DNA of 35,763 nucleotides, taken from the UHGV virus genome UHGV-0260253; one strand, written 5' to 3'. Within the stretch, counting starts at the first letter, position 1. Each line of letters begins with the position of its first letter. Origin of the DNA: a virus. The position numbers and the translations under genes are program-made. Positions 434-35,625 of the stretch are shown one piece after another. Below the pieces are notes generated by a model. The model ran no database searches. It was not told the origin of the DNA and was given only the letters and a program-made list of their open reading frames with translations.

Positions 434-1018
434 TTACTCCGGATATTTAAAAATTACGTAGGTATGCGAAGGGCAGAGTTTGTTAAGCACGCACTCGACA
501 ACGGTGTCGCCCCAGATACGCAGTGCGGAATCACAGGGATCGCCACATGTCATCCAGGTGGTGTTGGTGGCGGCTGGCATGTTGACCTGCCAGTAATACC
601 GCCATTCAGGCGCGTTCACAGCGTCAGTACAGGCCGATGAGCAGGTGAACGTGCTTTTGTCGTATCGCGTGATGGTGGCATCTGGTCTGCCCAGGGCAGC
701 AAGCTGTGCAAGATAAAAATCCTCGTTGATGCCGCCCGCCAGGTTAACCTTCGCATCCAGTCGTTGCTGACGCTGGCGAAGGGTCTGTGTTCCTGCGGGA
801 ATACATTCATCCGGCAGGCCGCACAGACGCTCCCAGCGATTTATCAGTTCGGTGGTGGTGCGCGGATCCAGCTCCCGCATCAGGGCATCCGCACGCTGAT
901 GAACGCGGGTTAATGACGGTGCCGCACCGGCAATCGCCGGATCGCTGGCTGACCACGCCGGACCGGGCGGCAGCAGTGCCGACAACAGACGGATGTAATC
1001 ATCGTTTGTCACGTCCAT
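434..1018 (-). CDS. Mu gp48-like tail protein (DUF2313, YmfQ-like)
   Basis: 194-aa ORF between baseplate J-like gene and tail fibre; position and size match Mu gp48 / e14 YmfQ family. Confidence 0.65.
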
Positions 1019-20073: not shown

Positions 20074-21126
20074 TTATTTCCCCACCAGTTCACTTACCTC
20101 TTTCACCGTCTGATTAAACCGCTCTGACTCAAGTTCAACACCTAACGCCCGACGCCCCAGCGCCATTGCTGCTTTTATTGTGGAACCGGATCCCATAAAG
20201 AAATCAGCAACCAGATCGCCTGGTCGACTACTGGCATTGATTATTTGCCGGAGCATATCCGCCGGTTTCTCGCACGGATGTTTACCCGGATAGAACTGAA
20301 CGGGCTTATGCGTCCAGACATCGGTATAAGGCACGGAGACTGATACGGAGAAATAGCGCCGGAGTGATTTAAACTCATCCAGCAATTCAGAATATTTGCG
20401 ATTCAGTGAATCATAAGATGCCACCAGCTGGTGGTGTGGTTGTTCCAGTTGCTGTTCCTGAAACTTCTCTGCCGCTATACGGGAAAACAGTGCCTGTAAC
20501 TTCCGGTAGTCAGCCTCATTCGGCAACTGCCACTGACTGGCACCAAACCAGTGGGAAACCATATTTTTCTTACCTGTGGCTTCGGCAATTTGTTTTGCCG
20601 TTATACCCAGTTCGGCACGAGCATTCCTGAAATACGATATCAGCGGTGCCATTATGTGCTGTTTGAGTTCCCTTTCTTTTGCCGCATAGCCGTCACTTTT
20701 GCCACGATATGGCCCATGGTAATGTTCAGCAAACAGAACGCGCTCTGTGGCAGGAAAATATGCACGCAGACTTTCTTTATTACACCCATTCCAACGTCCG
20801 GACGGCTTCGCCCAGATGATATGGTTAAGCACGTTGAAACGTTCACGCATCATGATCTCAATATCAGATGCCAGGCGATGTCCACAGAACAGGTAAAGGC
20901 TTCCGGCAGGTTTCAGCACCCGCCAGAACTGGGCCAGACAGTGATCCAGCCACTTAAGGTAATCTTCGTCCCCTTTCCACTGATTGTCCCAACCGTTGGG
21001 TTTCACCTTGAAGTACGGCGGATCGGTAACAATCAGGTCAATGGAATCATCAGGCAGGGACTGAATAAAATGCAGGCAATCAGCGTTGATTAAATCAACA
21101 CTGTTTATTTTTACAGTATTTTTCAT
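20074..21126 (-). CDS. DNA methyltransferase (N6-adenine/N4-cytosine class, DPPY motif)
   Basis: 350 aa; motif IV LIVTDPPYF near N-terminus and motif I FFMGSGST near C-terminus (beta-class order). Confidence 0.85.
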   Translation of the reverse strand: MKNTVKINSVDLINADCLHFIQSLPDDSIDLIVTDPPYFKVKPNGWDNQWKGDEDYLKWLDHCLAQFWRVLKPAGSLYLFCGHRLASDIEIMMRERFNVLNHIIWAKPSGRWNGCNKESLRAYFPATERVLFAEHYHGPYRGKSDGYAAKERELKQHIMAPLISYFRNARAELGITAKQIAEATGKKNMVSHWFGASQWQLPNEADYRKLQALFSRIAAEKFQEQQLEQPHHQLVASYDSLNRKYSELLDEFKSLRRYFSVSVSVPYTDVWTHKPVQFYPGKHPCEKPADMLRQIINASSRPGDLVADFFMGSGSTIKAAMALGRRALGVELESERFNQTVKEVSELVGK

Positions 21127-21719: not shown

Positions 21720-22472
21720 TTATCTCGTCACTTTTCTTAATTGCGCCTCAGCATATGCTTCTTCCTGCCAGCACTTTGTAACCAGTTTATCAATGACATC
21801 TGCATATCCTTTGTACCACTGATAATCTGTCAGGTCTGGTACCAGCTTCTGGACATGATGCCGCGCCAGTGTGGTTGGTAAACGGCTAAACCGGTTTCCA
21901 TTGCAACGCCCACAAATCTTATAAACAGGCGTGCCATGAAGCCGGGTCCTTTTTTCATCCAGGACAATACCTTTACCCTTACACCCTCTGCACGCTGTGC
22001 TGACTTCTCCCTTACCATGACAATGCTGACATAGTTCCTTCACCCACTCTTCCTTGATAACAGATTCCCCGCTTCTGGAGTGTTTCACCACTTCGCGCAA
22101 TACATTATGAAATCCAGTACCAGCACAATGCTCACAGCGAGCCTTACTTGCCGCAGACCTGGAATAATCAGCAAAGGCAAAATTCACAAGGTAAGGGATG
22201 ATCTGTAACCGGGTTTCTTCACTCAATTTATTCAATGTCGGGTTATCCAGTGCCATCGCGTAATTGAGCAGACCTTCAATCGCAAATTGAGGATCCTGAA
22301 CACCAACTTTTGCCAGGAATAAGGCAAACCCAAGCGGTGCTTTCGACTGCACCATCCCCTGCGCAGCCATCACATCCGTAATCGTTAAACCACCTGAGCC
22401 TGTCGCCGGTGCGTCATCGCTCAATTTTGGAGATTTCGGGGAGTAATATTTTGGTAAGGCTTCAAGGTTCAT
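21720..22472 (-). CDS. Late antiterminator Q (QuuD-like)
   Basis: Start at internal ATG 22470-22472 (MNLEALPKYYSPKSPK...); position immediately upstream of pR'/lysis genes. Contains four CxxCxGxG repeats. Confidence 0.75.
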   Translation of the reverse strand: MNLEALPKYYSPKSPKLSDDAPATGSGGLTITDVMAAQGMVQSKAPLGFALFLAKVGVQDPQFAIEGLLNYAMALDNPTLNKLSEETRLQIIPYLVNFAFADYSRSAASKARCEHCAGTGFHNVLREVVKHSRSGESVIKEEWVKELCQHCHGKGEVSTACRGCKGKGIVLDEKRTRLHGTPVYKICGRCNGNRFSRLPTTLARHHVQKLVPDLTDYQWYKGYADVIDKLVTKCWQEEAYAEAQLRKVTR

Positions 22473-22485
22473 GCTCGTTCTCCAC

Positions 22486-23481
22486 TTACGCCAATACGCC
22501 AATTGCCAGCGCACGATCGATAAAACGAAATATCAGCTCCAGCTGAGAGCCATACTTCTCTTCAAATGCCACGGTATCCGCATGCAGCTCGTCGTGATGC
22601 TTTCTGCACAAAGGCAACACAAAGAGGTCATGCGCTTTTGTACCCATTCCACCCTGACCGTGGCCTATCAGGTGGTGGGGATCATCAGCAGGCTTTCCAC
22701 AACATGCACACGGCTGTGTCTTAACCCAGCGCGTGTACTTTTCATTAACCCAGCGGCGGCGTTTTGGGCGTAACATAAAAGACTCCGGCGACTCCGGATC
22801 CACTTTCAGCGCCAGCACCTTTTTCGCTTTATCCTGGATGATGCTGGTGGCAGGAACCGAAGGCACAAGGTCACTTTCCCGGGTGACAGACGGCACAACA
22901 GGTTTCGGTAATCTCAGCGCCTTACGGGCTGCGCTTTCAGGTAAGGCATCCGCCAGGTCATTACGAATCAGCCACCAGCACAGTTCCGGCATTGTCACGG
23001 CATGGTTATCATCAAAACCGAGATCCCGACGGACTACAGACAACACCCAGCGGGCACAGTTATCCGTTGCCATTGATTCCAGCCGTTCCGTGAACTGATC
23101 GCGCAGCTGGTTATCGCAGTGCCAGCACAGACGGATTGCGCCCGGAGCGTGTCGCATTGTGGTCATGTTCTCGCTGTGCCAGTCGGAATGAGGCCACTGG
23201 CAGCCTTTTTCACGAAGTAACCAGCTTTCAAGACATTCCACGCCACCAGCACGACGGATCACTGCCTCATTGCGGAACACGGCCCGAACGGCAGGATCAT
23301 CCGCCAGCGGTTGTGATGCCGCCGGAACGGCACCACTGGCGAAAGATGAATAACGTTCCGGCTCAGGCTCCAGCAGGACACGCCCCTGCATAAACAGGGG
23401 CATCAGCTCTGAACCTGGCCTGAACAATACGATCCCCATACGCGGGGCAATTTCAGGAGTCAGTAGTGCTCTCACGGTCAC
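22486..23481 (-). CDS. DUF968-like protein with C-terminal Ref/HNH-like nuclease motif
   Basis: 331 aa; C-terminus CACCGKPADDPHHLIGHGQGGMGTKAHDLFVLPLCRKHHDELH. Confidence 0.55.
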   Translation of the reverse strand: MTVRALLTPEIAPRMGIVLFRPGSELMPLFMQGRVLLEPEPERYSSFASGAVPAASQPLADDPAVRAVFRNEAVIRRAGGVECLESWLLREKGCQWPHSDWHSENMTTMRHAPGAIRLCWHCDNQLRDQFTERLESMATDNCARWVLSVVRRDLGFDDNHAVTMPELCWWLIRNDLADALPESAARKALRLPKPVVPSVTRESDLVPSVPATSIIQDKAKKVLALKVDPESPESFMLRPKRRRWVNEKYTRWVKTQPCACCGKPADDPHHLIGHGQGGMGTKAHDLFVLPLCRKHHDELHADTVAFEEKYGSQLELIFRFIDRALAIGVLA

Positions 23482-28051: not shown

Positions 28052-28252
28052 CTAATCTTTCGGATAGATATCCGGTCTTAAGTCAGATTTCGTAATTGCA
28101 CCTGACGTGCATTGCTCAAGTTTTTTAGCCAGCACAAAACTGGCTTTTTTATAGCCATTGAAAACCAGCCGTAAGTAGCCAGGTGTTGAGCCAACTTTTC
28201 CGGCCAACTCGCCCTGCTGTTCTTTGGTTAAAGAGTCCCAATACGCTTTCAT
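28052..28252 (-). CDS. Cro-like HTH repressor (YdaS-like)
   Basis: Internal start MKAYWDSLTKEQQGELAGKVGSTPGYLRLVFNG at ATG 28250-28252 with GGAGG SD; longer ORF would overlap cI start and operators. Confidence 0.7.
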   Translation of the reverse strand: MKAYWDSLTKEQQGELAGKVGSTPGYLRLVFNGYKKASFVLAKKLEQCTSGAITKSDLRPDIYPKD

Positions 28253-28257
28253 ACAAT

Positions 28258-28276
28258 ATGTACCTCCGGTATACAT
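28258..28276. promoter_or_regulatory. Operator-like site OR-a (ATGTACC-N7-TACAT)
   Basis: ATGTACCTCCGGTATACAT, inverted arms ATGTA/TACAT; overlaps pR -10 and cro leader; same architecture as the site in the pL-like promoter. Confidence 0.45.
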
Positions 28277-28302
28277 ATTACATGATTGAAATGAACCTTC
28301 AA
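28275..28302 (-). promoter_or_regulatory. pR-like promoter for cro operon
   Basis: Minus strand TTGAAG-N16-TAATAT upstream of cro-like gene. Confidence 0.45.
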
Positions 28303-28306
28303 GATA

Positions 28307-28327
28307 CTTGTACCTTAACGGTACAAG
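28307..28327. promoter_or_regulatory. Operator-like perfect palindrome OR-b
   Basis: CTTGTACC-TTAAC-GGTACAAG, 8-bp perfect inverted arms; overlaps -35 of the pRM-like promoter. Confidence 0.5.
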
Positions 28328-28336
28328 GGTTTTAAT
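28308..28336 (+). promoter_or_regulatory. pRM-like promoter for repressor (near-leaderless)
   Basis: TTGTAC-N17-TTTAAT ending 6 nt before the cI ATG at 28343; no SD, consistent with a leaderless transcript as for lambda cI. Confidence 0.4.
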
Positions 28337-28342
28337 TTCGTT

Positions 28343-29017
28343 ATGAAAACAATCCATGACATCCGGCGGTCTAACGCCAGAAAACTGAGAGATGGTGTTG
28401 GAGGGAATTCTTCCTTTGCCACTATGATTGATCGCGAGCCAACCCAGACCAGCAGGTTTATGGGAGATGGTGCTACTAAAAATATCGGTGACAGCATGGC
28501 ACGACACATCGAAAAATGTTTCGACCTGCCTGTCGGATGGCTCGATCAAGAACACCAGACAACGAACATCACAAAAAAACCTGATGTTTCAATCACTAAT
28601 AAACAAATCACATTAGTCCCTGTCATATCATGGGTACAGGCCGGAGCATGGAAAGAAGTTGGATATTCTGAGGTTGATTTGAGCACAGCAGAAACGTATC
28701 CCTGCCCTGTACCCTGTGGGGAAATGACTTATATCTTGCGGGTGATAGGTGATTCAATGATTGATGAGTACCGCCCGGGAGACATGATTTTTGTCGATCC
28801 TGAAGTACCTGCCTGCCACGGTGACGACGTTATTGCATTGATGCACGATACAGGTGAAACCACCTTCAAAAGGTTGATAGAAGATGGGACACAGCGTTAT
28901 CTCAAAGCGTTAAACCCAAACTGGCCTGAGCCTTACATTAAGATCAACGGTAATTGCTCTATAATTGGAACTGTGATTTTCTCAGGAAAACCAAGAAGAT
29001 ACAAAATCAAAGCCTAA
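28343..29017 (+). CDS. CI-like repressor (HTH plus S24 LexA-like peptidase domain)
   Basis: 224 aa; N-terminal HTH (ATKNIGDSMARHIEKCFDLPVGWLD), C-terminal autocleavage motifs VIGDSM (Ser) and TTFKRL (Lys). Confidence 0.85.
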   Translation: MKTIHDIRRSNARKLRDGVGGNSSFATMIDREPTQTSRFMGDGATKNIGDSMARHIEKCFDLPVGWLDQEHQTTNITKKPDVSITNKQITLVPVISWVQAGAWKEVGYSEVDLSTAETYPCPVPCGEMTYILRVIGDSMIDEYRPGDMIFVDPEVPACHGDDVIALMHDTGETTFKRLIEDGTQRYLKALNPNWPEPYIKINGNCSIIGTVIFSGKPRRYKIKA

Positions 29018-29030
29018 TCAATGTTTATGA

Positions 29031-29052
29031 ACCTGCTTCGGCAGGTTTTTTT
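29031..29052 (+). terminator. Rho-independent terminator after repressor gene
   Basis: ACCTGC-TTCG-GCAGGT hairpin followed by TTTTTTT. Confidence 0.6.
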
Positions 29053-29056
29053 ATAC

Positions 29057-29085
29057 TTGACAATGTACCTATGAGATACATAATG
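29057..29085 (+). promoter_or_regulatory. pL-like early promoter with embedded operator
   Basis: TTGACA-N17-ATAATG; spacer contains ATGTACCTATGAGATACAT (29063-29081) and a second ATGTACC at 29083-29089. Confidence 0.55.
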
Positions 29086-29188
29086 TACCCAAGAGAAACA
29101 ACAAACAGGCAGGACGCCCACGAAGTAGCCGCCGGTGGCGTATGAATGACCGGATGATTCGTTAAATACTATGTGTAAGAGAGCGCAA

Positions 29189-29392
29189 ATGAACCGTTAT
29201 TTCACATGCTCGTTTTGTGGCGCAAACGAGCTGCAGGCAAAAAAAATCATCGCCAAAGGCGGAAAAGATGAAGTTGCTATCTGCTCTGAGTGCGTAGTCT
29301 TGTGTGTCGGGGCATTAATCAATATCAGCACAACTATTCAGTTCACACCAAATGAGAATGCGCCTTTAGATGCGCGGAAATCTGGAGGTTAA
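29189..29392 (+). CDS. Small ClpX-type zinc-ribbon protein
   Basis: YFTCSFCGANELQAKKIIAKGGKDEVAICSECV: C-x2-C-x19-C-x2-C with CSFCG, as in the ClpX N-terminal zinc-binding domain (recalled). Start may be 29171 or 29189. Confidence 0.55.
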   Translation: MNRYFTCSFCGANELQAKKIIAKGGKDEVAICSECVVLCVGALINISTTIQFTPNENAPLDARKSGG

Positions 29393-29400
29393 AGAACAAA

Positions 29401-29676
29401 ATGAAAGTCCAGATTTTAAACAATAGTGGTGAAGTCGTTTGGTCATACGACATAGCCGCTCCTGTAGATCAGAGCGGCGATAGCTGGACCAATGGGAAAC
29501 ATCAGATTATGGCTGGAGTTGTGTTCTCTTTACGCCGTGCTTTAGAACAAGCTGAAGTCTTTCCATCAGACCCTGAATGGAAATGGCCTTTTTCTATTTG
29601 TCCAAATTCGGAGAGTACATTTCAGAAAATTGGTCAGAAAGTCGCACTCGAAGAGCATCAGCCAACTGTTTCCTGA
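29401..29676 (+). CDS. Hypothetical early protein (91 aa)
   Basis: Starts 9 nt after previous stop with GGAGG upstream; 3' end overlaps a convergent ORF. Confidence 0.4.
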   Translation: MKVQILNNSGEVVWSYDIAAPVDQSGDSWTNGKHQIMAGVVFSLRRALEQAEVFPSDPEWKWPFSICPNSESTFQKIGQKVALEEHQPTVS

Positions 29677-29839
29677 TTTTTTCAGGTAACTCGTCGGCAT
29701 CGCAGAAACAACAACGCTCGATCATGTTGAAAGCCGATTCGTAGAACTGTTTTTGCTGAGTGTCGCTGAGACAGGAAAAGAGCGACGTTACGATGATTTT
29801 ATTAATTGCATTATCAAGTTCTTTTTCATCAAAAGTCAT
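29594..29839 (-). CDS. Hypothetical protein (81 aa), antisense to early operon
   Basis: AAGGA SD 9 nt upstream of ATG; overlaps the 3' end of the plus-strand ORF by 83 nt. Confidence 0.35.
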   Translation of the reverse strand: MTFDEKELDNAINKIIVTSLFSCLSDTQQKQFYESAFNMIERCCFCDADELPEKIRKQLADALRVRLSDQFSEMYSPNLDK

Positions 29840-30279
29840 TTGATTTTCCTTTTATGTATACGGGCTTAAAAGGATACCACCGAGCCTGAAGTGGTGAAAA
29901 GACAGGCACATAACAGCTAAGTATTTTCAACCAGAGAGAATCCTTAGCGTTGTGGTGAATGCGCAGGCTGATGCGCGAAAGACATTGCAGCTATTGCAGA
30001 AAAGAGCTGTTCGGCGGGGCAATTAAATGCCCGTGAGAGTCTGAAATAACCGCATGCCGGAGATCAGCACCGGTCACCACAACAGCCACTGCTTTGGCGG
30101 TACCAGTTTGTACACTTGCTTCCGGCTGGTACCGCTCTTTTTACAAAACAGAGAAGAGCATCACCGGACGACGAGCTGATAACCCAATCCATCCGGGCGG
30201 CTGCCACCGCAGGTGTTCTTCTCTGTTTTGTGGAGAAACCAACCGACCTTGCAGGGTCGATATGATGAGGAGCAGCAAA

Positions 30280-30642
30280 ATGGCTAGCGAACGCAGTACT
30301 GATGTGCAGGCATTTATCGGGGAGCTGGACGGCGGCGTATTTGAAACCAAAATCGGCGCAGTTCTCAGTGAAGTCGCTTCCGGTGTGATGAACACGAAAA
30401 CCAAAGGTAAGGTCTCACTCAACCTGGAAATCGAACCATTTGATGAGAACCGTGTGAAAATCAAACACAAACTCTCATATGTTCGCCCGACTAACCGCGG
30501 GAAAATTTCCGAAGAAGACACCACCGAAACGCCGATGTATGTCAATCGCGGTGGTCGCCTGACTATTCTGCAGGAAGACCAGGGACAATTACTGACTCTT
30601 GCCGGTGAGCCTGACGGAAAACTACGCGCAGCAGGTCATTAA
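30280..30642 (+). CDS. Hypothetical protein (120 aa, possibly YfdP-like)
   Basis: Start chosen at ATG 30280 (MASERSTDVQ) with GAGGAG SD; the long upstream extension lacks an SD. Confidence 0.45.
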   Translation: MASERSTDVQAFIGELDGGVFETKIGAVLSEVASGVMNTKTKGKVSLNLEIEPFDENRVKIKHKLSYVRPTNRGKISEEDTTETPMYVNRGGRLTILQEDQGQLLTLAGEPDGKLRAAGH

Positions 30643-30707
30643 TATCGTTATTAATAAACTGATTATTTATCTCATCACTGAATATCTTTATATAGTGAGG
30701 ACTTATT

Positions 30708-31532
30708 ATGTCTCAGAACTTAGACGCAACCGCAATTAATCAAATCCATGCCCTTATTTCTGCTCAGGGTGTTAATGAAATTATCAGTAAGATTGGTGCC
30801 GATGCTGTGGCATTGCCTGAGAATTTCCGCATTCATGATCTGGAAAAATTTAATTTAAATCGCTTCCGTTTCCGTGGTGCGCTTTCCACTGCCAGCATCG
30901 ATGACTTTACCCGTTATTCTAAAGATCTTGCAGATGAAGGCACCCGCTGCTTTATCGATGCTGATAATATGCGTGCCGTCAGTGTGCTTAACCTGGGTAC
31001 TATTGATGAACCAGGTCACGCAGATAACACCGCCACTCTCAAACTGAAAAAGACAGCACCGTTCTCTGCTCTGTTGTCTGTTAACGGCGAGCGCAACTCC
31101 CAGAAGTCACAGGCAGAATGGATTGAAGACTGGGCCGACTACCTTGTGGGCTTTGATGCTAATGGTGACGCCATTCAGGCAACAAAAGCGGCTGCGGCAG
31201 TCCGTAAAATCACGATTGAAGCAAACCAGACCGCTGATTTTGAAGATAATGACTTCAGCGGCAAACGCTCCCTGATGGAGTCTGTCGAAGCGAAGACCAA
31301 AGACATTATGCCAGTGGCATTTGAATTTAAATGCGTTCCGTTTGAAGGCCTGAAAGAACGTCCGTTTAAATTACGCCTCAGCATTATCACTGGCGATCGT
31401 CCTGTACTGGTTCTGCGCATTATTCAGCTGGAAGCAGTGCAGGAAGAAATGGCTAACGAATTTCGTGATCTGCTTGTTGAGAAATTCAAAGACAGCAAAG
31501 TAGAAACCTTCATTGGTACTTTCAGCGCCTGA
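30708..31532 (+). CDS. DUF2303-like protein (YfdQ-like)
   Basis: 274 aa, GTGAGGA SD; size and neighbourhood match the CPS-53 yfdQ family as recalled. Confidence 0.5.
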
Positions 31533-31544
31533 TTTCATTACTGC

Positions 31545-31568
31545 AAATGCCCCTGCGGGGGCATTTAT
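31545..31568 (+). terminator. Hairpin (possible attenuator) after DUF2303 gene
   Basis: AAATGCCCC-TGCG-GGGGCATTT perfect 9-bp stem; weak U-tract, so termination efficiency is uncertain. Confidence 0.35.
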
Positions 31569-31659
31569 GGAAACGTAATTAACTCAATAATCGCCGGATG
31601 ATGAGGGCTTCCTTTTACCAAAATTCAGTATGGCGCAGCACATATACGTGGAGAACAAA

Positions 31660-32208
31660 ATGTCATTTATTAAAACTTTTTCCGGGAAGCATTTTTATTA
31701 TGACAAGATAAATAAAGACGACATCGTTATTAACGATATCGCGGTTTCCCTTTCAAATATCTGTCGCTTTGCAGGACATCTTTCACACTTCTACAGCGTC
31801 GCCCAACATGCGGTGCTTTGCAGCCAGCTGGTACCGCAGGAATTTGCTTTTGAAGCGTTAATGCATGATGCAACAGAAGCTTATTGTCAGGACATCCCCG
31901 CGCCACTGAAACGCCTTCTTCCTGACTATAAACAGATGGAAGAAAAAATAGACGCCGTGATCCGTGAGAAATACGGGTTACCCCCGGTGATGAGTACGCC
32001 CGTGAAATATGCCGATCTCATCATGCTGGCAACCGAACGCCGCGATCTCGGGCTTGATGATGGCTCTTTCTGGCCTGTACTGGAAGGCATCCCGGCAACA
32101 GAGATGTTCAACGTGATTCCACTGGCACCGGGCCATGCCTACGGGATGTTTATGGAACGCTTTAAAGAGCTGCATAAGATACATAAACAATCCAGACAGC
32201 GAAATTAA
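31660..32208 (+). CDS. HD-domain phosphohydrolase (YfdR-like)
   Basis: Start at ATG 31660 (MSFIKTFSGK) with GGAGA SD; HD-motif residues SVAQHAV...LMHDATEAY. Confidence 0.65.
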   Translation: MSFIKTFSGKHFYYDKINKDDIVINDIAVSLSNICRFAGHLSHFYSVAQHAVLCSQLVPQEFAFEALMHDATEAYCQDIPAPLKRLLPDYKQMEEKIDAVIREKYGLPPVMSTPVKYADLIMLATERRDLGLDDGSFWPVLEGIPATEMFNVIPLAPGHAYGMFMERFKELHKIHKQSRQRN

Positions 32209-32251
32209 CTAGTGAAATAGTTTTGTAGCAAAAGAAATGAGGTTATCAAAA

Positions 32252-32497
32252 ATGCTTCAAATGCTGACACTTGAGGAATGGGCTACGGAAAAATACAGAA
32301 GTAATCCTCCAAGTGTGTCCACATTGCGTCGTTATGCTAAGCAGAATTTATTTTGTCCACCGGCAATGAAACAAGGTCGACTATGGCGAGTGCGTGAGGA
32401 CGCAGAGTTAGTTGGGGAATTAGTTACTCCTGTCATCAAGAAAAGTGATTCTATTATTCTACAAAGGATTTTAAGTAATGGCAGCCAGACCACGTAA
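32252..32497 (+). CDS. xis: Excisionase, lambda Xis-like
   Basis: MLTLEEWATEKYRSNPPSVSTLRRYAKQNLFCPPAMKQGRLW parallels lambda Xis MYLTLQEWNARQRRPRSLETVRRWVRECRIFPPPVKDGREY (recalled); overlaps int start by 20 nt. Confidence 0.75.
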   Translation: MLQMLTLEEWATEKYRSNPPSVSTLRRYAKQNLFCPPAMKQGRLWRVREDAELVGELVTPVIKKSDSIILQRILSNGSQTT

Positions 32498-33608
32498 AAA
32501 TAATGTTTCAGTCCCGAACTTATATCCGCTCTATAGCAGAAAAGTAAATAAAGTCTATTGGCGATATAAGCATCCAGTGACCGGGAAGTTTCATTCTTTG
32601 GGCACAAACGAAGCTGAAGCCATTGCTATTGCCACTGAGGCCAATACACGCCTGGCTGAGCAAAGAACCCGGCAGATTCTAGCTATCAGTGACAGGATCG
32701 CAACCAGCAAAGGAAAAGCAATCACAACGTCAACCTGGTTAGATCGCTATCAAGCAATCCAGGATGACAGACTGAAAAGTGGCGATATAAAGCTCAACAC
32801 CTATAAACAGAAAGCTAAACCAGTATCCTTGCTCAGGGAACGAGCAGGAATGAAGTTAATTTCATCCGTTGATGTAAGGGATATAGCACAATTGCTTGAC
32901 GAGTATATCACTGCTGGGCAACCGAGGATGGCGCAAGTAGTCCGCTCCGTTCTAATTGATGTATTCAAGGAGGCACAACACTATGGGGAGGTCCCTCCTG
33001 GCTATAATCCAGCATTAGCGACCAAACAGCCCAGAAGAAAAATTACCCGACAACGGTTAAGCCTTGAAGAATGGCAAAAAATCTTTGATATCGCAGATGC
33101 CAGTCATCGTTATATGGGGAATGCCATGCTGTTAGCACTGGTTACCGGTCAGAGGTTAGGTGATATCTCGCGTATGAAATTTAGCGATATTTGGGATGAT
33201 CATCTCCATGTCATCCAGGAAAAAACTGGGAGCAAAATCGCCATCCCGCTTTCCCTGCGTCTCAATGCGATTAACTGGAGTTTGCGAGATGTAGTAGCCC
33301 GCTGCCGTGACTATGCTGTCAGTCCATATCTTGTACATTTTTTTCGCACAACCTCACAGGCTGAACGTGGCGCACAGGTAAAAGCTAATACACTAACGAT
33401 GAACTTTAGCAAGGCGCGTGATCTGGCAAAAATTGATTGGGGTACTGGAACTCCAGCAACTTTTCATGAACAAAGATCTTTATCTGAACGCCTTTACAAG
33501 GAGCAAGGGATAGATACCAGAAAACTGCTGGGCCATAAAACCCAGCAGCAAACCGATCGTTACCATGATGACAGGGGAAAAGATTGGAATAAGTTAGAAT
33601 TAAAATGA
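32478..33608 (+). CDS. int: Tyrosine integrase, lambda family
   Basis: 376 aa, AAGGA SD; C-terminal catalytic region HFFRTT...HEQRSLSERLY...LLGHKT...RY. Confidence 0.9.
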   Translation: MAARPRKNNVSVPNLYPLYSRKVNKVYWRYKHPVTGKFHSLGTNEAEAIAIATEANTRLAEQRTRQILAISDRIATSKGKAITTSTWLDRYQAIQDDRLKSGDIKLNTYKQKAKPVSLLRERAGMKLISSVDVRDIAQLLDEYITAGQPRMAQVVRSVLIDVFKEAQHYGEVPPGYNPALATKQPRRKITRQRLSLEEWQKIFDIADASHRYMGNAMLLALVTGQRLGDISRMKFSDIWDDHLHVIQEKTGSKIAIPLSLRLNAINWSLRDVVARCRDYAVSPYLVHFFRTTSQAERGAQVKANTLTMNFSKARDLAKIDWGTGTPATFHEQRSLSERLYKEQGIDTRKLLGHKTQQQTDRYHDDRGKDWNKLELK

Positions 33609-33631: not shown

Positions 33632-34198
33632 TTAACACACTTCAGAGCCACTTAACTGGAAAGTTATAGGAGATATTTTACCTCTAAACCTATAAGGTTT
33701 GGATAGTAGTAACTTTTCCATAACCCCATTATTAATTACTTTTTTTGCATACTGTTCATCAGTAAGTTCTTTCCCTAAAAAAGAGAATCTATTACATACA
33801 ATCCATATATTAAAATCAGTAATTTTCACATCTTCTTTTAAAAAACTATCAGAAAAACGCTCTTGCATGAAATCGTCTACTGCTGTCTTATACTTGCATC
33901 GTATATTTTCTTCATCTAATCGGGAAACTTTTGCAACATTCTTCAACTCAATTATGTAAAGTGCAAAACGATTATCCCCTCGCTTAATAACTAAAATATT
34001 ATCTGGTGAAGGAGGTGTAATAGGCAACCGAAGCGAATTATAATATGAATCCACAGAAAGATTGATTATTTTTTGGCAATCTAGTTTTCCGTTATCCTGA
34101 TAAAAATCAGCATCCAATTTGACAAACACATTATTTTCTTCGACTTCATCACGAAGTAAAGCAGTTAACTCAGGAGTTGCAAGAATTTTTTCGATCAT
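33632..34198 (-). CDS. Hypothetical protein with PD-(D/E)xK-like motif (candidate nuclease effector)
   Basis: 188 aa, AT-rich, no histidines; PD...(17 aa)...ELK pattern (SPDNILVIKRGDNRFALYIIELK); ATGA-coupled to the upstream ATPase gene. Confidence 0.45.
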   Translation of the reverse strand: MIEKILATPELTALLRDEVEENNVFVKLDADFYQDNGKLDCQKIINLSVDSYYNSLRLPITPPSPDNILVIKRGDNRFALYIIELKNVAKVSRLDEENIRCKYKTAVDDFMQERFSDSFLKEDVKITDFNIWIVCNRFSFLGKELTDEQYAKKVINNGVMEKLLLSKPYRFRGKISPITFQLSGSEVC

Positions 34199-35625
34199 TC
34201 TTTGCCATCCTCGTCTTCCATTTCGTCATTTATAGTTTGAAAGATATCCATCTTTTCATCAAATAACTCATTCGTAGCTGGGCCAAAGTTATTATCCTCA
34301 ATCCCTAACTCATCAATTTCTAGCGGTAAAGCAACACTTCCTGTTCCTGTCTTTTTAAATACTACTGATGATACATTATTTTTATGGATACCTGTCATGC
34401 AGTTCTCAGCAGTGTTCTTAATCACAAGATTATTAACCTTGTTGAATATAAAATTACTATGAGATGTCACAATAAGTTTAACATTTGCATCTATTAATTT
34501 TGCAAATATCTCTGTTAATTTTATTTGAATTTCCGGATGTAAATGAGCTTCTGGTTCTTCAATCATAATTAATGGTTTAGGTTCTGGACGTTTGAATTCC
34601 CTAGCCCCGCTTCCGATGCGTCTCATACCCGATTCGTCAGCTTTAGTAAGCACGTATCTTAAATATGATACAATAGGTGCCAACTCTGAAACCATCGAAG
34701 ATGTTGATGACAACTCTAATCTAAGATTTGTATTATTAGGATAAAAAAGAAGCTGTTTTGTCTGTGGATTAAATTCCACTCTACCATCTAATATTTTATC
34801 TTCTATTTCTTTGGCAAGGATATTTAATTTCTTATCTTCATAGTTCCGTTTAACAACTCTAATATCAGACAACTTAATGAAGTAATCACTAACAGGCTCA
34901 GATATACTTGGCAATTCAATTTTTTTTGATAAGAAAGATCTATTCTTAGATAACTCTGCAATTATTTGACCAAAAGCACTCAGAGCTTGATACAAACCCG
35001 AACGACTTGCTGGCAAATAATGGACACTCTTAAGAGTCGGTGTTAAAATTGTATTAACCATAACCATGAATGTTCTTTGAACAAAGAAGTGATTGTATTC
35101 GCCAATCAATCTGTTTATAGCTTCTTCATAATTATCGTTATTTTCCCTATAATAAATACTGGATGAATTTGCGCCATGGTGAAAAGTTCTATTTCTTTTT
35201 GATTTTTTTATATAAAATTGTTGAGCGTGCTTGATATCACTTACACATAATTTGTTATTTTCGAGTTTTATGTCTACAGATAAATCATTACCAACCAGAC
35301 TGATCTTAGCTGGTTCATTATTAAACTGATTTTGTAGATTGTTAAGTGATACAAATGTATTTGAAAAAGAATTAGTTAACTCTGCTAGTAAATAACTCGC
35401 AAACATATTTTTTATGTCTTCATTCACTAACATTGAAACATTCATATCTGTTTCATCACTTTCTATAAAACCTGCAAATTCTTTCCTCCTTATATCTGAA
35501 GTCATTTCAATATGATCGAAATCAAGATAATAATCGAAGGAATTGATTATATATGAGCGACGTTGTTTTAGTTGCAGTAAAGATTTAACAATTAAATAAA
35601 TTGCGGTTATTGCATATGATTTACC
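34195..35625 (-). pseudogene. ABC-type (OLD/AAA_15-21-like) ATPase, N-terminus disrupted by IS1
   Basis: Frame open upstream of the annotated ATG to the IS1 junction; native residues GKSYAITAIYL (Walker A remnant) abut IS1. Downstream motifs: VHYLPASRS, Walker B LIMIEEPEAHLHP, H-loop LIVTSHS. Confidence 0.65.

What the first reader, a model, noticed from the sequence alone, without database searches (positions are those of the whole stretch)
29057..29090. pL-like promoter carries the same ATGTACC-N7-TACAT operator as the cro promoter
A near-consensus promoter (TTGACA-N17-ATAATG) follows the cI terminator, and its spacer contains ATGTACCTATGAGATACAT, which has the same architecture as the dyad at 28258-28276. 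A second ATGTACC follows at 29083-29089. This supports a two-operator (OR/OL) immunity design driving the rightward operon that ends in xis-int.
Basis: seen in the sequence. Interest (0 to 1): 0.45.

Follow-up and report, generated by a model that had tools for sequence, protein, structure and literature searches.

The report
Repressor-controlled early-left promoter of an e14/SfV-type prophage
This is the ordinary "pL/OL" early promoter of a lambda-like prophage with the immunity type of E. coli e14 and Shigella phage SfV: the prophage repressor's binding site lies inside the promoter, and the transcript starts with a widely conserved folded RNA that has not been catalogued.

Summary
They follow the cI terminator (29029-48).

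Two details need correcting. The better -10 is CATAAT with a 16-bp spacer. The true operator is (A)TGTACC-N5-GGTACA(T).

The repressor gene is ymfK/cohE of E. coli e14, identical in protein to SfIV cI. In 18 sequences from other species (CI 73-100% identical), the -35, the -10 and the half-sites are invariant, while the 5-bp centre of OL1 varies freely. Heteroimmune phages carry different dyads in the same promoter position but the same downstream leader. So the operator travels with the repressor. Published K-12 data show ymfJ (pL arm) and ymfM (pR arm) induced together late in SOS.

OL is one full site plus one conserved half-site. OR has three sites, not one.

This is a new member of a known kind, and repressor binding is untested.

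One adjacent feature is more interesting. The first ~70 nt of the pL transcript (29098-29166) form a three-helix RNA with strong covariation. It occurs in many N-less temperate phages, is absent from Rfam, and is not detectably an HK022/HK639 put RNA. Its function is unknown.

The parts
28052..28252 (-). cro-like gene (ymfT/croE type, 66 aa)
   Evidence: ORF list. Annotated as cro in SfV and as ymfT in E. coli. Weak Pfam YdaS/HTH_3 match. PHROG transcriptional repressor.
28258..28276 (.). OR-a operator ATGTACCTCCGGTATACAT. It overlaps the end of the pR -10 and the predicted start site, and the cro Shine-Dalgarno (GGAGG on the - strand) lies in its centre.
   Evidence: Conserved in all relatives.
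28275..28302 (-). Predicted pR: -35 TTGAAG (28302..28297), 16-bp spacer, -10 TAATAT (28280..28275).
   Evidence: Read from the sequence. TTG and the -10 are conserved across species. It scores 8/12, below the scan tool's threshold, so this is inferred.
28291..28309 (.). OR-b, a weaker operator ATGAACCTTCAAGATACTT. It covers the pR -35 and is centred about -43 from the cI ATG.
   Evidence: 2 mismatches. ATGAACC...GGTACTT is conserved in all relatives.
28308..28326 (.). OR-c operator TTGTACCTTAACGGTACAA (perfect 17-bp dyad). It overlaps the predicted pRM -35 and spacer.
   Evidence: 0 mismatches. Half-sites conserved and centre variable in relatives.
28331..28336 (+). Predicted pRM -10 (TTTAAT), ending 7 nt before the A of the cI ATG. 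This implies a leaderless cI mRNA.
   Evidence: A TxTAAT hexamer is conserved at a fixed distance from the ATG. The bases between vary and show no consistent Shine-Dalgarno. Inferred.
28343..29017 (+). cI-type repressor (ymfK/cohE type, 224 aa): N-terminal HTH domain, Ala100-Gly101 cleavage site, and S24 peptidase domain with Ser138 and Lys176.
   Evidence: Pfam Peptidase_S24. C-terminal domain matches the lambda CI C-terminal domain at 2e-9. N-terminal profile matches 5d50_A Repressor at 2.5e-6 and TP901-1 CI at 2e-3. Motif positions. 100% identical to SfIV cI.
29029..29053 (+). Intrinsic terminator of the cI transcript (hairpin 29029-29048 plus T-run).
   Evidence: Annotated as a terminator in SfV and Ayreon. 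A hairpin with compensatory changes is present in relatives.
29057..29084 (+). pL promoter: -35 TTGACA (29057-62), 16-bp spacer, -10 CATAAT (29079-84). Predicted start about 29090-29092.
   Evidence: 11/12. Both hexamers invariant in 18 cross-species sequences. The same stretch is annotated 'promoter' in phage Ayreon. The start site is inferred.
29063..29081 (.). OL1 operator ATGTACCTATGAGATACAT. It fills the promoter spacer and the first 3 bp of the -10.
   Evidence: Majority-base fraction is 0.99 for the left half, 0.49 for the 5-bp centre and 0.95 for the right half.
29083..29101 (.). OL2, a weak or half operator ATGTACCCAAGAGAAACAA. It covers the last 2 bp of the -10 and the start site. 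The left half is invariant and the right half is degenerate.
   Evidence: Left half 0.99, right half 0.67, against a 0.60 background. It has the same position relative to the -10 as OR-a has at pR.
29098..29166 (+). Conserved structured leader RNA at the 5' end of the pL transcript. P1 = 29100-05/29158-63; P2 = 29108-10/29116-18; invariant junction CACGAAGUAGC; P3 = 29132-36/29149-53.
   Evidence: Covariance model match of 93.4 bits. Covariation counts. No Rfam family.
29171..33608 (+). Early-left operon: ClpX-type zinc-finger ORF (29171-29392), unknown ORFs, DUF2303/YfdQ (30708-31532), YfbR-like HD phosphatase (31630-32208), excisionase (32237-32497), lambda-type integrase (32478-33608).
   Evidence: That one transcript from pL reaches int is inferred.

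Best explanation
Window 29057-29101 is the early-left promoter (pL) and operator (OL) of a lambdoid prophage. Its immunity module is the e14 (cohE/ymfK-croE/ymfT) = SfV/SfIV type.

In the lysogen, dimers of the CI-type repressor bind the 17-19 bp dyad (A)TGTACC-N5-GGTACA(T) through an N-terminal helix-turn-helix domain. OL1 (29063-81) fills the space between the -35 and the -10. OL2 (29083-101; one perfect half-site, one degenerate) covers the end of the -10 and the start site, 20 bp (about two helical turns) from OL1. A second dimer there is probably held mainly by cooperative contacts through the lambda-CI-like C-terminal domain. Occupancy excludes RNA polymerase.

The same repressor occupies three sites between cro and cI. 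OR-a lies over the pR start. OR-b lies over the pR -35 and about -43 from a leaderless cI start. OR-c lies over pRM.

DNA damage triggers RecA-stimulated self-cleavage at Ala100-Gly101 (Ser138/Lys176). This frees pL and pR together. pL then transcribes a structured leader RNA and the early-left genes, ending in xis and int.

Shown here: the sequences, their placement, their conservation pattern and their linkage to the repressor type. Inferred: binding, cooperativity, start sites, the repression mechanism, and that one transcript reaches int.
For: - Placement and statistics.
- Identity of the module: 98.6% DNA identity to K-12 e14 ymfK/ymfT, 95.5% to SfV, CI protein 100% identical to SfIV cI.
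- Phylogenetic footprint in 18 cross-species sequences, anchored on the cI stop codon and TTGAC only: -35 1.00, OL1 left half 0.99, centre 0.49, right half 0.95, OL2 left half 0.99. In 53 variants, the E. coli-level substitutions in OL1 fall in the 5-bp centre.
- Natural swap experiment: prophages with other repressors and phages ZF40, YeP1, SPN3UB and pAEv1818 have the same leader. They carry other dyads in the pL spacer, and for the three prophages whose cro-cI regions I read (L028, L029, L031) those dyads match the ones there.
- A Pseudomonas phage regulator with a 59%-identical N-terminal domain has three TGTACC-N5-GGTACA-type sites upstream.
- Repressor anatomy.
- No LexA box near pL or pR.
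- Published K-12 time course: ymfJ, ymfM and intE rise together late in SOS (PMC11002266). Both e14 arms sit in one iModulon with sulA and recN (PMC10602906, PMC12132413).
Against: - No binding, footprint, reporter or start-site data exist for this module in anything I could read. The SfV record annotates only a 'putative operator region' at OR.
- The distal half of OL2 is no better conserved than the neighbouring sequence (0.67 against 0.60-0.63). OL2 may not be a true second operator.
- The 53-variant set was collected with a regular expression that includes TTGACA and the first bases of OL1. Those positions are invariant by construction there. avoids this bias but has only 18 sequences.
- The pR and pRM assignments are weak consensus matches (8/12).
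- A convergent ORF (29594-29839, - strand) and a ~400-bp gap lie between pL and xis-int. Read-through to int is therefore assumed.
Confidence: 0.85

Rival explanations
1. Only OL1 is an operator. The second ATGTACC (29083-89) is conserved for promoter reasons (the -10-proximal/discriminator and initially transcribed sequence), or as the tail of the palindrome GGTACAT-A-ATGTACC. It is not half of a second repressor site.
For: The right half of OL2 is no more conserved than background (0.67 against 0.60-0.63). In some relatives it is deleted or replaced (L008, L011, L015). GGTACATAATGTACC is itself a perfect palindrome.
Against: ATGTACC is invariant in 17 of 18 cross-species sequences, while the bases just after it vary. 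It is an exact copy of the operator half-site. It has the same register to the -10 as the full operator OR-a has at pR (TAAT|ATGTA). G-N2-ACA of the right half recurs in most relatives.
Confidence: 0.3
2. The dyads are mainly Cro sites, or sites for another regulator, rather than CI sites.
For: Cro of this module is also an HTH protein. In lambda-type switches Cro binds the same operators. Sequence alone cannot tell which protein binds.
Against: The motif co-occurs with the CI N-terminal domain even in a Pseudomonas phage where the rest of the protein differs. The sites flank cI on both sides, at the positions where a lysogenic repressor must act. Dual use by CI and Cro is the expected case and is not an alternative.
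Confidence: 0.05
3. pL here is repressed directly by host LexA. ymfJ and intE of e14 appear in lists of LexA-regulated genes.
For: ymfJ and intE are SOS-induced and are listed as LexA-repressed in older compilations, as reported in PMC11002266.
Against: There is no CTGT-N8-ACAG match with up to 1 mismatch between 28000 and 29300, and no match to the 20-bp LexA consensus anywhere in the window. The dyad here is TGT-N11-ACA. e14 genes are induced about 40 min later than LexA genes, and those authors attribute this to a CI-like repressor.
Confidence: 0.03
4. The match between the two 19-mers is chance, and the promoter is unregulated.
For: The bare heptamer is only mildly enriched.
Against: Dyad statistics, the cross-species footprint and the heteroimmune swaps.
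Confidence: 0.01

Closest known systems
Bacteriophage lambda pL/OL and pR/OR with CI and Cro
   Same: - Gene order: cro <- OR -> cI - terminator - pL/OL -> early-left genes ... xis, int.
- A repressor with an N-terminal HTH and a C-terminal S24 self-cleaving domain homologous to the lambda CI C-terminal domain.
- Operators overlapping the core promoters.
- Three sites at OR, including one at about -43 of a leaderless cI start.
- SOS induction.
   Different: - The operator sequence and geometry differ: a 17-19 bp TGTACC-N5-GGTACA dyad.
- OL has one full site plus a half or weak site, not three.
- OL lies about 0.75-0.8 kb from OR (2.3-2.4 kb in lambda, from memory), because no rex genes intervene.
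- OR spacings are 33 and 17 bp, and the two 17-bp cores abut.
- No N gene or nut site was found (PMC3851460).
E. coli K-12 e14 prophage immunity region (cohE/ymfK, croE/ymfT, ymfJ) and Shigella phages SfV/SfIV
   Same: It is the same module. DNA identity is 98.6% to K-12, 95.5% to SfV and 97.4% to SfIV. The CI protein is identical to SfIV cI. The OL and OR sites are the same apart from bases in the dyad centres.
   Different: The genes downstream of the leader differ: here a ClpX-zinc-finger ORF, YfdQ and YfbR-like genes; in K-12, ymfJ/ymfI/ymfH. In the records I could read, only OR is annotated as a 'putative operator region' (SfV), and a promoter is predicted after cI in phage Ayreon. The Mehta et al. 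2004 e14 analysis and the SfV genome paper could not be opened. I cannot say whether OL was described there.
HK022 / HK639 putL antiterminator RNA (for the leader at 29098-29166)
   Same: - About 70 nt of folded RNA immediately downstream of pL, in lambdoid phages that lack N.
- Conserved across heteroimmune phages.
- In the position of nutL/putL.
   Different: - The leader has three helices around a junction, whereas put has two side-by-side stem-loops (PMC9378689).
- A covariance model of the leader finds nothing in HK022 or HK639 (best E about 4.5-6).
- BLAST does not link them.
- There is only one copy in the window and none in the pR operon.
- No antitermination activity is known.

Membership tests
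Lambda-type CI/Cro immunity switch with OR and OL | Divergent cI and cro genes separated by an operator/promoter region | tested here: met
   cro is at 28052-28252 (-) and cI at 28343-29017 (+). The 90-bp gap holds three dyads.
Lambda-type CI/Cro immunity switch with OR and OL | Repressor with an N-terminal HTH DNA-binding domain and a C-terminal LexA/S24 self-cleaving domain (Ala-Gly site, Ser and Lys) | tested here: met
   Peptidase_S24 at residues 93-212. Lambda CI C-terminal domain at 2e-9. N-terminal profile against 5d50_A Repressor at 2.5e-6 and TP901-1 CI N-terminal domain at 2e-3. A100-G101, S138 and K176. No Pfam HTH model matches the N-terminal domain.
Lambda-type CI/Cro immunity switch with OR and OL | The same operator sequence inside a second promoter (pL) on the far side of cI, reading away from it | tested here: met
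   OL1 lies in the spacer of TTGACA-16-CATAAT. It is conserved with the repressor and replaced in heteroimmune phages.
Lambda-type CI/Cro immunity switch with OR and OL | Three tandem operators at OL as well as at OR | tested here: not met
   OR has three sites. OL has one full site plus one site with only a conserved half. No further match lies upstream of the -35, where the terminator sits.
Lambda-type CI/Cro immunity switch with OR and OL | Repressor binds the operators and represses pL and pR; Cro binds the same sites | not testable with these tools
   Only indirect support: ymfJ, ymfM and intE are co-induced late in SOS in K-12 (PMC11002266).
Lambda-type CI/Cro immunity switch with OR and OL | N protein and nut sites for early antitermination | tested here: not met
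   No N-like family among the pL-operon ORFs in Pfam or PHROGs. SfV, SfIV and SfII are reported to lack N (PMC3851460).
e14 / SfV immunity group | Near-identical CI, Cro and operator DNA | tested here: met
LexA (SOS) box | CTGT-N8-ACAG dyad overlapping the promoter | tested here: not met
   No match with up to 1 mismatch between 28000 and 29300. No match to the 20-bp consensus.
HK022-type put antiterminator RNA (leader 29098-29166) | Sequence and structure homology to putL/putR (two stem-loops) | tested here: not met
   The covariance model finds no hit in HK022 (L112, L113) or HK639 (L120, which includes the annotated putL), with E of at least 4.5. The topology differs.
HK022-type put antiterminator RNA (leader 29098-29166) | Lies just downstream of pL in a phage without N | tested here: met
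   The RNA begins about +8 from the predicted start. In 60 of 86 contexts it begins 35-51 nt after a TTGAC.
HK022-type put antiterminator RNA (leader 29098-29166) | Promotes read-through of terminators; blocked by RNA polymerase beta-prime zinc-binding-domain mutations | not testable with these tools
   Indirect and unsupportive: intrinsic terminators within 1.5 kb downstream are rare (5 of 68 contexts).

The most novel reading that the evidence does not exclude
The promoter and operator are conventional, but what pL transcribes first may not be. The 69-nt three-helix leader (29098-29166) occurs at the 5' end of early-left transcripts in many heteroimmune, N-less temperate phages of Escherichia, Shigella, Salmonella, Yersinia, Pectobacterium and Aeromonas, and in T5-like Providencia phages. 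It could be a new class of cis-acting RNA that modifies RNA polymerase. That would make it a functional analogue of HK022 put with a different fold, and it would explain how these phages express distal early genes such as xis and int without N.
Probability: 0.2. Interest if true: 0.7.

Novelty: new member of a known kind. Interest (0 to 1): 0.35.

Why it matters
For the finding itself, the value is modest. It gives a precise, testable operator definition (TGTACC-N5-GGTACA) and promoter map for the e14/SfV immunity type. That type is present in about 2,100 of 5,426 complete E. coli genomes, including K-12, and in serotype-converting Shigella phages and Stx2c phages. It also explains why both e14 arms, including the cell-division inhibitor ymfM and int/xis, come on together and late in SOS. 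It corrects the listing of ymfJ and intE as LexA targets.

The adjacent leader RNA matters more. It is a well-supported, uncatalogued structured RNA at the exact place where lambda has nutL and HK022 has putL, in phages whose early antitermination mechanism is unknown.

Tried and rejected
- LexA-box explanation: rejected.
- Hammerhead-like reading of the three-way junction: rejected by eye, because the junction strands CA / CACGAAGUAGC / AUGA do not fit UH / CUGANGA / GAAA. There is also no Rfam hit.
- put homology: rejected at the sensitivity of the covariance model and BLAST.
- Antiterminator support from downstream intrinsic terminators: looked for and not found (5 of 68 sense against 15 of 68 antisense). 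In this window there is no convincing + strand terminator between 29170 and 33600.
- Thermodynamic support for the leader from the single window sequence: none (z = -0.05). The case rests on covariation.
- Other operator-like matches: 29189-29207 (ATGAACCGTTATTTCACAT) lies inside the first ORF, and that gene's start also follows a heteroimmune repressor (L028). 28708-28724 lies inside cI. I treated both as chance or coding sequence.
- Literature: the SfV genome paper and the Mehta et al. e14 paper could not be opened. The Reg-Seq 2025 preprint lists ymfJ and ymfT among its targets but reports nothing on them in the text or the held supplement.
- One viral-contig scan was wasted on a wrong fixed gap.

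Full report
**1. The observation**

- the cI-type gene ends at 29017;
- a GC-rich hairpin (29029-29048) and a T-run follow;
- TTGACA is at 29057-29062;
- the 19-mer ATGTACCTATGAGATACAT is at 29063-29081;
- a second ATGTACC is at 29083-29089;
- the cro-side 19-mer ATGTACCTCCGGTATACAT is at 28258-28276.

Two details need correcting. First, the consensus scan reads the promoter as TTGACA-16-CATAAT (29057..29084, 11 of 12). Second, aligning all the sites shows that the unit is (A)TGTACC-N5-GGTACA(T). The site at 28308-28326 is a perfect example (TTGTACC-TTAAC-GGTACAA).

The refined 17-mer with up to 2 mismatches gives 5 matches against 0.74 expected, and four of the five are in those two regions. 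The heptamer alone is only mildly enriched.

**2. What the module is**

The region 27400-29700 matches Shigella phage SfV at 95.5%, SfIV at 97.4% and E. coli phages PhiR29/PhiR49 at over 99%. In complete E. coli genomes, 28240-29170 matches 2,107 of 5,426 genomes. There the genes are named ymfK (LexA-family protein) and ymfT. K-12-type strains match at 98.6% at the e14 prophage position. The CI protein is 100% identical to SfIV cI. So this is the e14 (cohE/croE) = SfV/SfIV immunity type.

Features of the CI protein:
- It has a Peptidase_S24 domain at residues 93-212.
- Its C-terminal domain matches the lambda CI C-terminal domain (2e-9).
- Ala100-Gly101, Ser138 and Lys176 are present.
- No Pfam HTH model hits the N-terminal 92 residues.
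- A profile of 14 N-terminal domains matches the DNA-binding N-terminus of 5d50_A 'Repressor' (2.5e-6) and the TP901-1 CI N-terminal domain (2e-3).

The divergent 66-aa gene is cro-like. It is followed by a CII-like (Phage_CP76) gene and a replication gene on the - strand. Downstream of pL on the + strand lie a ClpX-type zinc-finger ORF, unknown ORFs, DUF2303/YfdQ, a YfbR-like phosphatase, an excisionase and a lambda-type integrase.

**3. Is the dyad in pL an operator?**

Four independent lines of evidence say yes.

(a) Cross-species footprint. A genome scan with CI returned 19 loci from other genera with CI 73-100% identical. In every one, the order downstream of cI is terminator, TTGACA, ATGTACC-N5-G(G/A)TACAT, A, ATGTACC. 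I anchored only on the cI stop codon and the first TTGAC. On that alignment, the majority-base fractions over 18 sequences were:
- -35: 1.00
- OL1 left half: 0.99
- OL1 5-bp centre: 0.49
- OL1 right half: 0.95
- OL2 left half: 0.99
- OL2 centre: 0.63
- OL2 right half: 0.67
- next 15 nt: 0.60

The N-terminal domain of CI is 68-90% identical in these loci.

(b) Micro-variation. Among 53 distinct OL sequences, mostly from E. coli viral contigs with identical CI, the substitutions in OL1 sit in the 5-bp centre (TATGA, TTTGA, CTTGA, CATGA, TTTGG, TTCGA and others), and the half-sites stay fixed. One caveat applies: the regular expression used to collect these included TTGACA and xTGTAC. Only the right half, the -10 and the second ATGTACC are therefore free observations in that set.

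(c) Natural swaps. The stretch from about 29100 onward also occurs in E. coli genomes that lack ymfK. There it follows other repressor genes, and the pL spacer holds other dyads that match those prophages' own cro-cI regions:
- TTGCG..CGCAA-type dyads with an XRE-family repressor (L028, L029);
- ACTAAG..CTTAGT-type dyads with a different LexA-family repressor (L031).

Phages ZF40, YeP1, SPN3UB and pAEv1818 likewise carry other, non-TGTACC sequences in their pL spacers, followed by the same leader. I did not compare those with their own cro-cI regions. The operator therefore belongs to the repressor module. The module boundary lies at about 29096-29100.

(d) Linkage to the DNA-binding domain. 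Pseudomonas phage vB_Pae_BR144a encodes a regulator whose first 71 residues are 59% identical to this CI, while the rest of the protein differs. Its upstream region holds TGTACCTCCTGGGTACA (perfect), TGTACCGTCAAGGTTCT and TGTACATTTCTGGTACA, in the same layout as OR here.

**4. Geometry and likely mechanism**

At pL:
- OL1 (29063-81) starts at the base after the -35 and ends 3 bp into the -10.
- OL2 (29083-101) starts in the last 2 bp of the -10 and covers the predicted start (about 29091).
- Their centres are 20 bp apart.

At OR:
- OR-a (28258-76) has the same register to the predicted pR -10 (TAAT|ATGTA) as OL2 has to the pL -10. It contains the cro Shine-Dalgarno sequence in its centre.
- OR-b (28291-309; ATGAACC..GATACTT here, mostly GGTACTT in relatives) covers the predicted pR -35 (TTGAAG).
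- OR-c (28308-26) shares 2 bp with OR-b, so the 17-bp cores abut. It overlaps the -35 and spacer of a predicted pRM.
- The pRM -10 (TxTAAT, 28331-36) is conserved at a fixed 6-nt distance from the cI ATG. The sequence in between varies and has no consistent Shine-Dalgarno. As in lambda, this implies a leaderless cI mRNA. It places OR-b at about -43.

The most likely mechanism is therefore the lambda one. Repressor dimers occlude pL and pR. Adjacent dimers are probably stabilised through the lambda-like C-terminal domain. RecA-stimulated self-cleavage releases both promoters. All binding and start-site statements are inferences.

Published K-12 data fit this picture. ymfJ (first gene after the identical pL/OL in e14) and ymfM (pR operon) show near-identical log2 fold changes (1.34/1.44, 4.05/4.00, 4.83/4.77). 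With intE, they form a late cluster that starts at about 50 min, against 10 min for LexA genes (PMC11002266). Both e14 arms fall in one iModulon with sulA and recN (PMC10602906 and PMC12132413). There is no LexA box near either promoter.

**5. What remains uncertain at OL**

The right half of OL2 (GAAACAA here) matches 4 of 7 positions. Across species it is no better conserved than the neighbouring sequence. In a few relatives it is deleted or replaced. The left half is invariant.

I rate at about 0.7 that OL2 is a weak, cooperatively filled site. I rate at about 0.3 that the second ATGTACC is conserved for another reason. Either way, OL is simpler than the three-site lambda OL.

**6. The leader RNA (outside the finding's coordinates, but it is what this promoter transcribes first)**

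The conserved stretch 29098-29166 aligns across homo- and heteroimmune phages. RNAalifold finds two hairpins with compensatory changes. By eye, an outer helix closes a three-way junction; its variants are AACGAA/TTCGTT, CCACC/GGTGG, GTCATC/GATGAC and GGAAC/GTTCC.

Counting pairs on the MAFFT alignment of 20 sequences:
- 90.7% of cells are paired, against 22-44% when the 3' partners are slid;
- 11 of 14 pairs have double changes;
- the covariation score is 0.48, against 0.13 in shuffles.

A covariance model gave these results:
- It finds exactly one copy in the window (93.4 bits).
- It finds the copy in a T5-like Providencia phage that was not used to build it (62.5 bits).
- It finds nothing in HK022 or in HK639, including the annotated putL there.
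- It recovers 89 copies (73 distinct) in viral contigs found with a short invariant pattern. There, P1 and P3 show four or more pair types at several positions. That alignment is fitted to the model, so it leans towards the structure.

The junction strand CACGAAGUAGC and the loop motif GGC-UA-GAA are nearly invariant. Rfam 15 has no family for this RNA.

The RNA begins within about 1-16 nt of the predicted transcript start in most contexts.

It is present in SfII, SfIV and SfV, which are reported to lack N. It is not among the 53 BLAST hits for Sf6, SfI or SfX, which have N. It is also present in ST64B, phiNP and mEp460_4F5, relatives of the N-less phage LLS. For LLS, a put-like mechanism was only conjectured (PMC12315714). 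No N-like ORF is found in the pL operon here.

Three points weigh against a simple antiterminator reading:
- Intrinsic terminators downstream are rare (5 of 68 contexts).
- None is convincing in this window.
- The single-sequence fold energy is unremarkable.

The function of this RNA is therefore open. A polymerase-modifying, put-like role is a hypothesis, at about 0.2 probability.

**7. Comparison with what is known, and novelty**

In how it works and in how it is built, this is a lambda-type pL/OL. In lineage, it is the e14/SfV immunity group.

It differs from lambda in five ways:
- the operator sequence;
- a reduced OL;
- a short OL-OR distance (about 0.75-0.8 kb);
- unusual OR spacings (33 and 17 bp);
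- the absence of N and nut.

Public records annotate a 'putative operator region' at OR in SfV and a predicted promoter after cI in phage Ayreon. I found no description of OL and no experimental test. Two key papers could not be opened.

This is a new member of a known kind, and interest in the operator itself is low to moderate. The adjacent leader RNA is the item most worth following up.

Noticed in passing
window 29098-29166 (+): A conserved three-helix leader RNA lies at the 5' end of the pL transcript. P1 and P3 covary strongly, and the junction CACGAAGUAGC is invariant. It is found in over 120 viral contigs and 53 phage records, including heteroimmune lambdoids and T5-like Providencia phages. 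It has no Rfam family and is not detectably HK022/HK639 put. Its function is unknown.
   Followed up: yes
window 28258-28343: OR holds three operator sites, not one. OR-b and OR-c share 2 bp, so their 17-bp cores abut. The cro Shine-Dalgarno sequence sits inside OR-a. A conserved TxTAAT hexamer ending 7 nt before the cI ATG, with no Shine-Dalgarno, implies a leaderless cI mRNA as in lambda.
   Followed up: partly
window 21100-21118: ACTGTTTATTTTTACAGTA is a near-consensus LexA box (a perfect CTGT-N8-ACAG). It lies just inside the 5' end of the - strand N6_N4 DNA methylase gene (20074-21126), downstream of the Q antiterminator gene (21720-22514).
   Followed up: no
window 33632-35505 (-): A two-gene cargo lies just beyond int. 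It comprises an AAA_15/AAA_21 ATPase (436 aa; PADLOC hits to NsnB, PD-T4-4_A, AriA and GajA) and an overlapping 188-aa protein with no family match. It is a candidate anti-phage defence moron.
   Followed up: partly
L121 1116-1183 (Pseudomonas phage vB_Pae_BR144a): A regulator shares only the first ~71 residues (59% identity) with this CI. It is preceded by three TGTACC-N5-GGTACA-type sites in the same layout as OR here. There is no such site downstream of the gene, where a CTGTATATACAG dyad occurs twice.
   Followed up: partly
L116 ~1575-1620, L117 ~1565-1610, L118 ~1565-1610, L009 (after the leader): In mEp237, SPN3UB, pAEv1818 and an Atlantibacter prophage, a second conserved block follows the leader RNA (TTAACGCGCAGCAGGT...AACGTTCCG). 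This block is absent from this window. It may be a second RNA domain.
   Followed up: no
L113 ~830-880 (-), HK022 pL region: The HK022 pL region carries TGTAC-N5-GTAC and TGAAC-N5-GTACA dyads. They resemble the half-sites here but have a spacing 2 bp shorter. The HK022 repressor is unrelated in its N-terminal domain. This is probably coincidence.
   Followed up: no
window 29119-29126 versus 29158-29163: In the e14-type leader, the 3' strand of P1 (UUCGUU) can also pair with ACGAAG in the invariant junction. The minimum-free-energy fold of the window sequence uses this alternative. In this window P1 has an A-C mismatch. Other leader groups cannot form the alternative pairing.
   Followed up: no
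window 28708-28724 and 29189-29207: Two further operator-like matches (2 mismatches each) lie inside coding sequence: one in cI and one in the first pL ORF. Neither was examined for conservation as a site.
   Followed up: no
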